Below are positions 1 to 411 of a stretch of DNA of 411 nucleotides, piece by piece. Position 1 is the first letter of the stretch. Each line of letters begins with the position of its first letter. The stretch lies in the NCBI RefSeq assembly GCF_003334335.1, contig NZ_QOWQ01000195.1, one strand, 5' to 3'. The position numbers are program-made. The DNA comes from Escherichia coli (GTDB lineage Bacteria > Pseudomonadota > Gammaproteobacteria > Enterobacterales > Enterobacteriaceae).

Positions 1-411
1 CCGTGTATCACGGGATTACCGTCCGTGTCCGTCAGCGGGGTTTTGTTCACCAGAATACTCTGCAGGCCTTTCACCGGACCTTCAATGGGTCCCTCACCAA
101 TCGCATCAATCACGCTCATCATCTGCGTGGATTTGAGGTTGTCTTTCGCCTCACGCGGTGTGTGCGCCCTGCCGCCACCTTTGCCCATTACATCACCTCT
201 TACCGTGATAATTGTTCACTCACAAAAACAACAGGCACCTCACCGGGTGCCTGCGTCATGACGGAATAAAATTTCTGAATATCTTCACATTTTCACACAC
301 TGACTGTGGCGCTTATAATTTCGCTGCGTTAGTTTTTTTTTGCCCGAGTAACAAAAACAACTCCTTAACATTAATCTTCATTTGTCTGTCCCCGCAGCTC
401 CGCGATCACTG

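What the first reader, a model, noticed from the sequence alone, without database searches (positions are those of the whole stretch)
284..297. Tandem TTCACA hexamers 8 bp apart, overlapping the candidate -35
TTCACA occurs at 284-289 and 292-297, followed by a CACACAC run to 300. Directly repeated half-sites that overlap a -35 element are a common operator arrangement, so this could be a regulator-binding site for the plus-strand promoter.
Basis: seen in the sequence. Interest (0 to 1): 0.25.

Follow-up and report, generated by a model that had tools for sequence, protein, structure and literature searches.

The report
Chance hexamer repeat in pasB promoter
The two TTCACA copies are real but are not a working pair: the upstream one is half of a strictly conserved, CRP-like regulator site in front of the known prophage small-RNA gene pasB. 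The downstream one is only a lineage-specific -35 box.

Summary
TTCACA sits at 284-289 and 292-297, and the second copy is the -35 of a near-consensus promoter, TTCACA-16-TATAAT. An exact 6-mer repeated 6-12 bp apart occurs in 47% of shuffles of the window, so the repeat itself is not remarkable.

The window is the gap between tail genes I and J of a lambdoid E. coli prophage. On the + strand it carries pasB, a published Hfq-dependent sRNA of EPEC E2348/69.

Among 82 unique PasB-family sequences collected through their terminator, hexamer 1 is exact in 80 and hexamer 2 in only 37. The -10 is kept in nearly all. Other lineages have TTCTGT, TCCGGC, TTTGCA and similar hexamers at the -35 position.

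The conserved partner of hexamer 1 lies upstream, giving TCTGA-N6-TCACATTT (274-292). Its half-sites are invariant and the centre of its spacer varies. It matches the CRP core in 9 of 10 positions.

That site is spaced almost as in lacP1 from a weak but conserved promoter, GTGGCG-18-TAGTTT. The predicted start of that promoter, G342, agrees with the mapped PasB 5' end at 340-341.

The tandem-operator reading is therefore not supported. A regulator site at hexamer 1 is supported. Its identity as a CRP site is an inference.

The parts
284..289 (+). Hexamer 1, TTCACA. Its TCACA (285-289) is the right half of the conserved dyad.
   Evidence: One search gives the sequence. It is exact in 80 of 82 unique family members, and columns 285-292 are 99-100% invariant.
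292..297 (+). Hexamer 2, TTCACA. It is the -35 of the consensus-like upstream promoter (P-up) and is lineage-specific.
   Evidence: scores TTCACA-16-TATAAT at 11 of 12. It is TTCACA in only 37 of 82 unique relatives. The others have TTCTGT (13), TCCGGC (10), TTTGCA (6), TCCGCA (6) and TCTGCA (5).
271..292 (.). Conserved 22-bp dyad element ATTTCTGAatatctTCACATTT, with core TCTGA-N6-TCACA at 274-289. It is a putative binding site for a dimeric regulator and matches the CRP consensus best.
   Evidence: The core has 1 mismatch to TGTGA-N6-TCACA, reached by 7 of 200 shuffles. The 22-mer has 3 mismatches to the CRP consensus, reached by 1 of 200 shuffles. TCTGA is exact in 80 of 82. Spacer positions 280-281 and flank position 272 vary. 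The 184 exact occurrences in 1.63 Mb of fetched loci all look like PasB-type promoters: about 40 were read directly and the automatic filter was unreliable.
265..271 (+). A-tract AATAAAA. It marks the left edge of the conserved pasB cassette.
   Evidence: Columns 266-271 are 94-100% conserved. Homology between cassettes in different left-hand contexts begins here.
314..319 (+). TATAAT, the -10 of P-up. The predicted start is near G326.
   Evidence: Conservation is A315 95%, T316 95%, A318 99% and T319 98% across the family.
306..311 (+). GTGGCG, the -35-like element of the weak downstream promoter (P-down).
   Evidence: G306 and T307 are 99% and G309 is 100% conserved. It lies 18 bp from TAGTTT. 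The layout parallels lacP1.
330..335 (+). TAGTTT, the -10-like element of P-down with the TAnnnT signature. The predicted start is G342.
   Evidence: T330 and A331 are 100% and T335 is 98% conserved, while 332-334 vary. The predicted start matches the annotated PasB 5' end at 341 and the RIL-seq fragment boundary at 340.
341..411 (+). The pasB sRNA gene as annotated in E2348/69 (83 nt, window 341 to about 423). It runs off the window. The conserved single-stranded core lies at 359-381. The 5' arm of the terminator, CCCGCAG, is at 391-397.
   Evidence: Coordinates come from PMC8550237 table S6, mapped through the 98.1% match to NC_011601. The full terminator and U-tract are seen in L001. Family conservation is shown.
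231..254 (-). Neighbouring feature: an intrinsic-terminator-like hairpin on the minus strand, just upstream of the J ribosome-binding site. It is not part of the pasB cassette.
   Evidence: The stem is invariant in 59 unique sequences. Pair 238-247 is C-G in 44 and T-A in 10. It is absent where the cassette sits in other contexts.
1..188 (-). The 5' end of tail-tip gene J (gpJ). The start codon is at 188-186.
   Evidence: RefSeq annotation of the 100% identical locus.

Best explanation
The two hexamers belong to two different promoter elements of the prophage sRNA gene pasB and repeat each other by coincidence.

Hexamer 1 supplies the TCACA half of an invariant dyad, TCTGA-N6-TCACATTT (274-292). 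This is most likely the binding site of a dimeric host transcription factor, with cAMP-CRP the best sequence match.

Hexamer 2 is the -35 of a near-consensus promoter, TTCACA-16-TATAAT, that only some PasB lineages have.

The dyad is centred at -60.5 from a second, weak but conserved promoter, GTGGCG-18-TAGTTT. That promoter's predicted start, G342, agrees with the mapped PasB 5' end. The layout is that of lacP1 minus 1 bp.

The inferred mechanism is class-I-type activation of this downstream promoter by the factor bound at the dyad. The stronger upstream promoter has the bound factor against its -35, much as in the overlapping lac and gal promoter pairs.

Shown here: the sequence, the conservation pattern, the identity of the sRNA and the distances. 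Inferred: which protein binds, and which of the two promoters fires.
For: Locus identity.
- The window is 98-100% identical to I-J intergenic regions of E. coli prophages.
- PasB is annotated at NC_011601 1466343..1466261 on the minus strand, which maps to window 341-423 on the + strand.
- The E2348/69 sequence carries both hexamers unchanged.

Conservation, from 82 unique sequences anchored on the terminator.
- Hexamer 1 is exact in 80, hexamer 2 in 37 and the left half TCTGA in 80.
- Columns 274-278 and 285-292 are 99-100% invariant.
- Positions 272, 280 and 281 vary freely, and 293-305 are variable.
- Six-base spacers seen include ATATCT, ATTTCT, AACTCT, AATTCT, TTTTCT, GTTTAT and ATTTAT.
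- The element travels with the pasB cassette in different left-hand contexts and in tandem arrays.

Match to CRP.
- The CRP core with at most 1 mismatch is reached by 7 of 200 shuffles.
- The 22-mer consensus with at most 3 mismatches is reached by 1 of 200 shuffles.
- In 1.63 Mb of phage loci there are 239 cores with at most 1 mismatch, and 184 of them are these sites.

Promoter strength. Lineages without hexamer 2 match TTGACA in only 1-4 of 6 positions at the -35 but keep the -10. That pattern looks activator-dependent.

Geometry. The lacP1 layout read from MG1655 is TGTGA-N6-TCACT, 17 nt, TTTACA, 18 nt, TATGTT, 6 nt, +1. Here it is TCTGA-N6-TCACA, 16 nt, GTGGCG, 18 nt, TAGTTT, 6 nt, G342.

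The 5' end. The only PasB fragment boundary found in the stored part of the RIL-seq tables is at window 340. None lies further upstream.

Expression. PasB is higher in overnight LB than in exponential DMEM. Chimera counts are 1820 against 258. The CRP-repressed sRNA Spf behaves oppositely, 387 against 7925.
Against: - The left half-site is TCTGA, not TGTGA. The C is fixed in 80 of 82 sequences. From established knowledge of CRP-DNA contacts, G at that position matters for binding.
- T282 and T284 in the spacer are also nearly invariant, which the CRP consensus does not predict.
- The site is centred at -44.5 from the strong consensus promoter, which is not a canonical CRP position. It is centred at -60.5, not -61.5, from the weak one.
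- The weak promoter matches the sigma-70 consensus in only 6 of 12 positions and was not called by the scan.
- The 340-341 5' end could come from processing of a transcript that starts at 326.
- Expression data do not single out CRP. The sigma-S-dependent SdsR rises in the same way (2239 to 20810). The CRP-activated McaS falls (903 to 211). CyaR rises only 1.7-fold.
- No binding data exist, and no weight-matrix score against curated CRP sites could be obtained.
Confidence: 0.6

Rival explanations
1. One reading: the two TTCACA hexamers are tandem half-sites of one regulator that binds over the -35 and represses or activates the + strand promoter.
For: Both hexamers are present and overlap a promoter scoring 11 of 12. 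The pair occurs in 36 of 82 unique family members, including the strain in which PasB was detected.
Against: Hexamer 2 is replaced in 45 of 82 unique relatives, while the -10, the sRNA and hexamer 1 are kept. Only three bases (295-297) separate the TTCACA lineages from the rest. The 8-bp spacing is off-phase for identical direct half-sites. A repeat of this kind is at chance level. The invariant partner of hexamer 1 is the upstream TCTGA.
Confidence: 0.06
2. The conserved element is a pair of 11-bp-spaced direct repeats, TTCTG-N6-TTCAC (273-288). It would be bound by an OmpR/PhoB-family response regulator such as CreB (cre tag TTCAC-N6-TTCAC), sitting against the -35 of the upstream promoter.
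For: TTCTGAATATCTTCAC matches the cre/blr tag (PMC4689548) in 8 of 10 positions. T273 (94%) and T284 (98%) are conserved. The span from -53 to -32 relative to a start at 326 is where promoter-proximal response-regulator sites usually lie (established knowledge).
Against: A match with 2 mismatches is at chance level: the mean is 0.79 per shuffle, and a better match lies inside the J coding sequence at 70-85. A278 and A289 fall outside the TTCAC pentamers yet are 99% invariant, whereas T273 tolerates C and G. That pattern fits the dyad register better. CreBC is reported to be active in minimal medium, the opposite of the PasB pattern (own knowledge, not tested).
Confidence: 0.12
3. The conserved block is not a protein-binding site. 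It is kept because it is a joint for recombination between sRNA cassettes, or because it serves the minus strand: the tail operon leader, or a small minus-strand RNA ending at the 254-231 terminator.
For: The cassettes are mosaic, with conserved ends (block and terminator) and a variable interior. On the minus strand TGTGAAGAT and TGTGAAAAT resemble extended -10 elements. A conserved minus-strand terminator lies 30 bp away.
Against: The block stays with pasB where the minus-strand hairpin and J are absent, including inside tandem arrays. Variation in the spacer breaks it into runs of about 11-13 bp, which is short for homologous exchange. The pattern of two invariant half-sites around a variable centre is what a dimeric DNA-binding protein produces, not what recombination produces.
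Confidence: 0.1
4. The consensus-like promoter TTCACA-16-TATAAT is the only pasB promoter. The RNA starts at about 326 and is trimmed to the 83-nt form, and the dyad acts from -44.5, for example as a repressor site or through a non-CRP factor.
For: The promoter matches 11 of 12 positions. The -10 is strongly conserved. GCGTTA at +1 to +6 is conserved, and a U-run could pair with the A-run in the single-sequence fold.
Against: The observed 5' boundary is at 340-341. The -35 is not conserved. No consensus 5' hairpin was found across 14 diverse family members. The conservation of GTGGC and of TAnnnT would be left unexplained.
Confidence: 0.25

Closest known systems
PasB (pathogenicity-associated sRNA B) of EPEC E2348/69; Pearl Mizrahi et al. 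2021 (PMC8550237); Zhu, Shabalina & Storz 2026 preprint (10.64898/2026.05.13.724894)
   Same: It is the same locus. The window is 98.1% identical to the E2348/69 region. The annotated 83-nt Hfq-dependent sRNA maps to window 341-423 on the + strand, between tail genes I and J.
   Different: The preprint does not contain the words promoter, CRP or transcription start. The 2021 paper was not searched for them. The conserved dyad, the two overlapping promoters and the divergent tandem paralogues described here were not found in these sources.
lacP1, the textbook class I CRP-dependent promoter
   Same: The order and spacing of elements agree: CRP-type dyad, 16-17 nt, weak -35, 18-bp spacer, weak -10, 6 nt, start (one search compared).
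   Different: The gap between dyad and -35 is 1 bp shorter, putting the centre at -60.5 rather than -61.5. The left half-site is TCTGA rather than TGTGA. Dependence on CRP is untested.
Overlapping promoter pairs under one CRP site (lac P1/P2, gal P1/P2)
   Same: There are two sigma-70-like promoters 16 bp apart. One dyad is well placed for one of them and lies against the -35 of the other (established knowledge of lac and gal; geometry).
   Different: It is not shown that both promoters are active here. The roles of the two promoters are inferred.
cre/blr tag TTCAC-N6-TTCAC (CreB/BlrA)
   Same: The TTCAC pentamer is shared, and a register of 11 bp exists between 273 and 284.
   Different: The 11-bp register matches only 8 of 10 positions, which is at chance level.
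CRP-activated Hfq sRNAs CyaR and McaS
   Same: These are host-factor-controlled base-pairing sRNAs with intrinsic terminators. They are the precedent for an sRNA promoter controlled by CRP (own knowledge).
   Different: They are core-genome genes. In the EPEC data their response to condition differs from that of PasB.

Membership tests
   Hexamer 1 is exact in 80 of 82 unique relatives, hexamer 2 in 37 and both in 36. The -10 is retained.
   The start-to-start spacing is 8 bp.
   This needs a footprint or EMSA.
Sigma-70 promoter TTCACA-16-TATAAT (P-up) | -35 and -10 hexamers separated by 16-18 bp. | tested here: met
   It matches 11 of 12 positions with a 16-bp spacer.
Sigma-70 promoter TTCACA-16-TATAAT (P-up) | The transcript 5' end lies about 7 nt after the -10. 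| tested here: not met
   The predicted start is about 326. The annotated PasB 5' end is at 341 and the RIL-seq fragment boundary is at 340. Processing is not excluded.
CRP binding site | TGTGA-N6-TCACA core within the 22-bp consensus AAATGTGA-N6-TCACATTT. | tested here: met
   The core matches 9 of 10 positions, reached by 7 of 200 shuffles. The 22-mer matches 13 of 16 specified positions, reached by 1 of 200 shuffles.
CRP binding site | G at position 5 of each half-site (the first G of TGTGA). | tested here: not met
   The left half is TCTGA. C275 is fixed in 81 of 82 sequences and is never G. The right half is perfect.
CRP binding site | Half-sites are conserved and the centre of the spacer is free. 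| tested here: met
   Positions 274-278 and 285-289 are 99% invariant, and 280-281 vary. However, T282 and T284 are also fixed.
CRP binding site | The site is centred at -61.5 (class I) or -41.5 (class II) from the start. | tested here: inconclusive
   The centre is at -60.5 from G342, with the lacP1 layout minus 1 bp. It is at -44.5 from G326. The start site has not been mapped as a primary end.
CRP binding site | Binding of cAMP-CRP and expression that depends on crp or cya. | not testable with these tools
   There is only indirect evidence. PasB is up in overnight LB relative to DMEM, but the patterns of SdsR, CyaR and McaS do not single out CRP.
cre/blr tag (CreB) | TTCAC-N6-TTCAC. | tested here: not met
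   The hexamer pair has a 3-nt spacer. The alternative register at 273-288 has 2 mismatches, which is at chance level (mean 0.79 per shuffle). The consensus is taken from PMC4689548.
PasB sRNA gene | Sequence and position match the published E2348/69 gene. | tested here: met
   The match is 98.1% over 411 nt. The coordinates map to window 341-423 on the + strand, between genes I and J.
PasB sRNA gene | A rho-independent terminator hairpin followed by a U-tract. | tested here: met
   CCCGCAG-loop-CTGCGGG followed by U7 is seen in the identical locus L001. The stem is kept and the loop varies across the family. Only the 5' arm lies inside the window.

The most novel reading that the evidence does not exclude
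Every member of a diverse family of PasB-like Hfq sRNA genes carries the same invariant CRP-type site at a lac-like distance. These genes occur singly or as arrays of up to four divergent paralogues between tail genes I and J of lambdoid and Stx prophages. If the site is functional, host cAMP status, or another single host factor, would switch on a whole phage-borne sRNA repertoire in lysogens.
Probability: 0.35. Interest if true: 0.45.

Novelty: new member of a known kind. Interest (0 to 1): 0.25.

Why it matters
As reported, the repeat is a coincidence and needs no further work as a tandem operator.

The region still has value. It is the control region of pasB, an abundant prophage sRNA whose regulation the preprint does not address: it has no mention of promoter, CRP or transcription start. 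The 2021 paper was not searched for these terms.

The invariant TCTGA-N6-TCACATTT element gives a precise target for mutation. If it is a CRP site, it would tie expression of a horizontally spread sRNA family in EPEC, EHEC and other E. coli to carbon status.

The analysis also shows that the obvious consensus promoter does not fit the mapped 5' end. That matters for anyone who builds pasB reporter fusions.

Tried and rejected
- Rfam, at E-value threshold 10, gave no sRNA family. The only hits were spurious archaeal C/D-box matches inside the J coding sequence.
- My first guess, that the locus was AgvB/AsxR, was wrong. Those genes lie at the PR' moron site.
- A first collection scan anchored on the hairpin found nothing. 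Anchors at 255-270 and on the terminator worked.
- I considered a tiny minus-strand RNA, with TGTGAAGAT as an extended -10 and the 254-231 terminator. I dropped it because the block follows pasB into contexts that lack the hairpin.
- By-eye comparisons from memory were rejected on spacing or key positions. These were not database tests.
  - LexA box: CTG-N10-CAT instead of CAG.
  - ARG box.
  - Cra and other LacI-family operators: TGAA-N4-TTCA is present, but there is no central CG.
  - RcsB box.
  - OmpR: only the right unit, TTCACATTTT, resembles a half-site.
  - Sigma-E -10 (TCTGA): there is no GGAACTT 16 bp upstream.
  - Sigma-54.
  - Lambda CII, TTGC-N6-TTGC.
- I could not obtain a curated list of CRP sites or a weight matrix from the paper library.
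- I tried to link the locus to EHEC EcOnc sRNAs. The two regions fetched (EcOnc31, EcOnc12) are not at I-J junctions.
- RNAalifold gave no consensus 5' hairpin, so it could not show whether 326-341 is transcribed.

Full report
**Observation**

The window reads ...gaatatcTTCACAttTTCACAcactgactgtggcgctTATAATttcgctgcg... TTCACA lies at 284-289 and at 292-297, and CACACAC at 294-300. The promoter scan reports TTCACA(292-297)-16-TATAAT(314-319), matching 11 of 12 positions. The coordinates and the overlap with a candidate -35 are therefore correct.

The repeat itself is not statistically remarkable. The window has two exact 6-mer direct repeats at 6-12 bp spacing. In 2000 dinucleotide-preserving shuffles, 47% had at least one.

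**What the locus is**

The window matches 1,888 of 5,426 complete E. coli genomes and 149 phage records, many of them Stx-converting phages. In the 100% identical locus, gene J (gpJ) starts at window 188 and runs leftward on the minus strand. Tail assembly gene I ends just beyond the right edge of the window.

EPEC E2348/69 matches at 98.1%. The RIL-seq study of that strain annotates the Hfq-dependent sRNA PasB at NC_011601 1466343..1466261 on the minus strand, 83 nt (PMC8550237 table S6). Through the alignment this maps to window 341-423 on the + strand.

E2348/69 carries both hexamers unchanged. Rfam has no model that hits this locus. In the identical locus L001 the RNA has a single-stranded conserved core, followed by the hairpin CCCGCAG-loop-CTGCGGG and U7.

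**Conservation test**

I collected relatives from IMG/VR with two anchors that do not include the hexamers. One was window 255-270. The other was the PasB terminator. All promoter variants lie in front of a homologous sRNA: a conserved GCGTTA, a U-run, an AACTCC..TTAATCTTC core, and a terminator with a variable loop.

In 82 unique terminator-anchored sequences the results were as follows:
- Hexamer 1 is TTCACA in 80.
- Hexamer 2 is TTCACA in 37. The rest have TTCTGT (13), TCCGGC (10), TTTGCA (6), TCCGCA (6), TCTGCA (5) and a few others.
- The -10 keeps A315, T316, A318 and T319 in 95-99%.

Only three bases, 295-297, separate the lineages that have the repeat from those that do not.

**The real partner of hexamer 1**

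The per-column profile shows the following:
- AATAAAA (265-271) is conserved.
- Position 272 is free.
- TCTGA (274-278) is 99% invariant.
- Positions 280-281 are free.
- T282, T284 and TCACATTT (285-292) are 98-100% invariant.
- Positions 293-305 are variable.

Six-base spacers seen between the half-sites include ATATCT, ATTTCT, AACTCT, AATTCT, TTTTCT, GTTTAT and ATTTAT.

The element follows the pasB cassette into different left-hand contexts, with or without the J-proximal hairpin and inside tandem arrays. It therefore belongs to pasB, not to J. Two invariant half-sites around a variable centre are the signature of a dimeric DNA-binding protein.

The core matches the CRP core TGTGA-N6-TCACA in 9 of 10 positions, which 7 of 200 shuffles reach. 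The 22-mer at 271-292 matches the CRP consensus in 13 of 16 specified positions, which 1 of 200 shuffles reach. In 1.63 Mb of fetched phage DNA, 184 of the 239 cores with at most 1 mismatch are these sites. By contrast, the cre tag TTCAC-N6-TTCAC (PMC4689548) matches only 8 of 10 positions at 273-288, which is at chance level.

**Two promoters**

The consensus-like promoter (P-up) predicts a start near G326. The annotated PasB 5' end is at 341. The only PasB 5' fragment boundary in the stored part of the RIL-seq tables is at window 340, with none further upstream.

The conservation profile reveals a second set of promoter-like invariants. These are G306, T307 and G309 (GTGGCG), and T330, A331 and T335 (TAGTTT, a TAnnnT signature). 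The two elements are 18 bp apart. The second ends 6 nt before G342.

Set beside lacP1 as read from MG1655, the layout is nearly the same. In lac it is TGTGA-N6-TCACT, 17 nt, TTTACA, 18 nt, TATGTT, 6 nt, +1. Here it is TCTGA-N6-TCACA, 16 nt, GTGGCG, 18 nt, TAGTTT, 6 nt, G342.

The dyad is therefore centred at -60.5 from G342, against -61.5 in lac. It is centred at -44.5 from G326, which is not a canonical CRP position. The elements of both promoters are conserved, so both may be used. RNAalifold on 14 diverse family members supported only the terminator. It could not show whether 326-341 is part of the RNA.

**Mechanism proposed**

A dimeric host factor, most likely cAMP-CRP, binds 271-292. It activates the weak downstream promoter in class I fashion. 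In the lineage of this window, hexamer 2 creates a good -35 for an overlapping upstream promoter, against which the bound factor sits. This resembles the overlapping lac and gal promoter pairs.

Steps shown here are the identity of the locus, the distances and the conservation. Steps inferred are the identity of the protein, the sign of regulation and which promoter is used.

**Caveats**

- The left half-site C275 is fixed, although G would be the CRP consensus base.
- T282 and T284 are conserved for no reason the CRP consensus explains.
- The site is 1 bp off the class I register.
- Expression data are only loosely compatible with CRP. PasB chimeras number 258 in exponential DMEM and 1820 in overnight LB, and Spf goes from 7925 to 387. 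But SdsR goes from 2239 to 20810, CyaR from 4299 to 7362 and McaS from 903 to 211.

**Verdict**

The tandem-operator interpretation is not supported. A regulator site involving hexamer 1 is supported, but with a different architecture. The repeat as reported is ordinary. The underlying conserved dyad is a modest, testable addition to what is known about PasB.

Noticed in passing
window 231-254 (minus strand): An intrinsic-terminator-like hairpin followed by a U-run lies on the tail-operon strand, between the pasB cassette and the J ribosome-binding site. In 59 unique relatives the stem is invariant apart from its two innermost pairs. Pair 238-247 is C-G in 44 and T-A in 10, a compensatory change, and pair 239-246 is C-G in 55. 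The loop varies (CCGGAG or TCACCG). It is not known what it terminates; it may stop transcription that is not Q-modified before it enters J.
   Followed up: partly
L026:7617-8430; also L034, L035, L045, L069, L075 (four cassettes each), L015 (three): Seventeen IMG/VR loci carry 2-4 divergent PasB-like cassettes in tandem, 180-240 nt apart. In the arrays inspected, each cassette has the TCTGA-N6-TCACATTT element and a promoter, and most have a terminator matching the PasB pattern. The 2026 preprint reports a minimum distance of 28 kb between pasB copies, so such arrays of divergent paralogues appear to have been missed by its BLAST search.
   Followed up: partly
window 306-335: Two overlapping sets of promoter-like invariants lie 16 bp apart: ATAAT at 315-319, and GTGGC plus TAnnnT at 306-310 and 330-335. 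Neither promoter alone explains all the conserved columns.
   Followed up: partly
L002:1794-1892 and L003:1821-1973 (equivalent to window ~294-392, minus strand): The phage records PhiR12_1 and 1720a-02 annotate small 'hypothetical protein' ORFs antisense to pasB. The matching window ORFs of 28 and 22 aa run through the sRNA and its promoter. They are probably annotation artefacts.
   Followed up: no
window 359-381: The most conserved internal stretch of the sRNA, AACTCCnTAAnnTTAATCTTC, contains CUCC, which is complementary to Shine-Dalgarno sequences. It is single-stranded in the predicted fold and is a likely seed region.
   Followed up: no
L001:3429-4009: In the genome with the 100% identical window (E. 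coli EC2), tail assembly gene I next to pasB is annotated as a frameshifted pseudogene. This prophage may be defective even though pasB is intact.
   Followed up: no
window 70-85 and 21-32: A better cre-tag-like match, TTCACCGGACCTTCAA with 1 mismatch, and a second exact tandem hexamer, GTCCGT at 21 and 27, both lie inside the J coding sequence. They serve as internal examples of how easily such repeats arise by chance.
   Followed up: yes
L125-L156 subset (sequences beginning GGCGGTGGTGGTGCGAGAATGG...): A few loci carry a PasB-like body and terminator that lack the promoter and the dyad. They look like truncated copies joined to unrelated upstream DNA.
   Followed up: no
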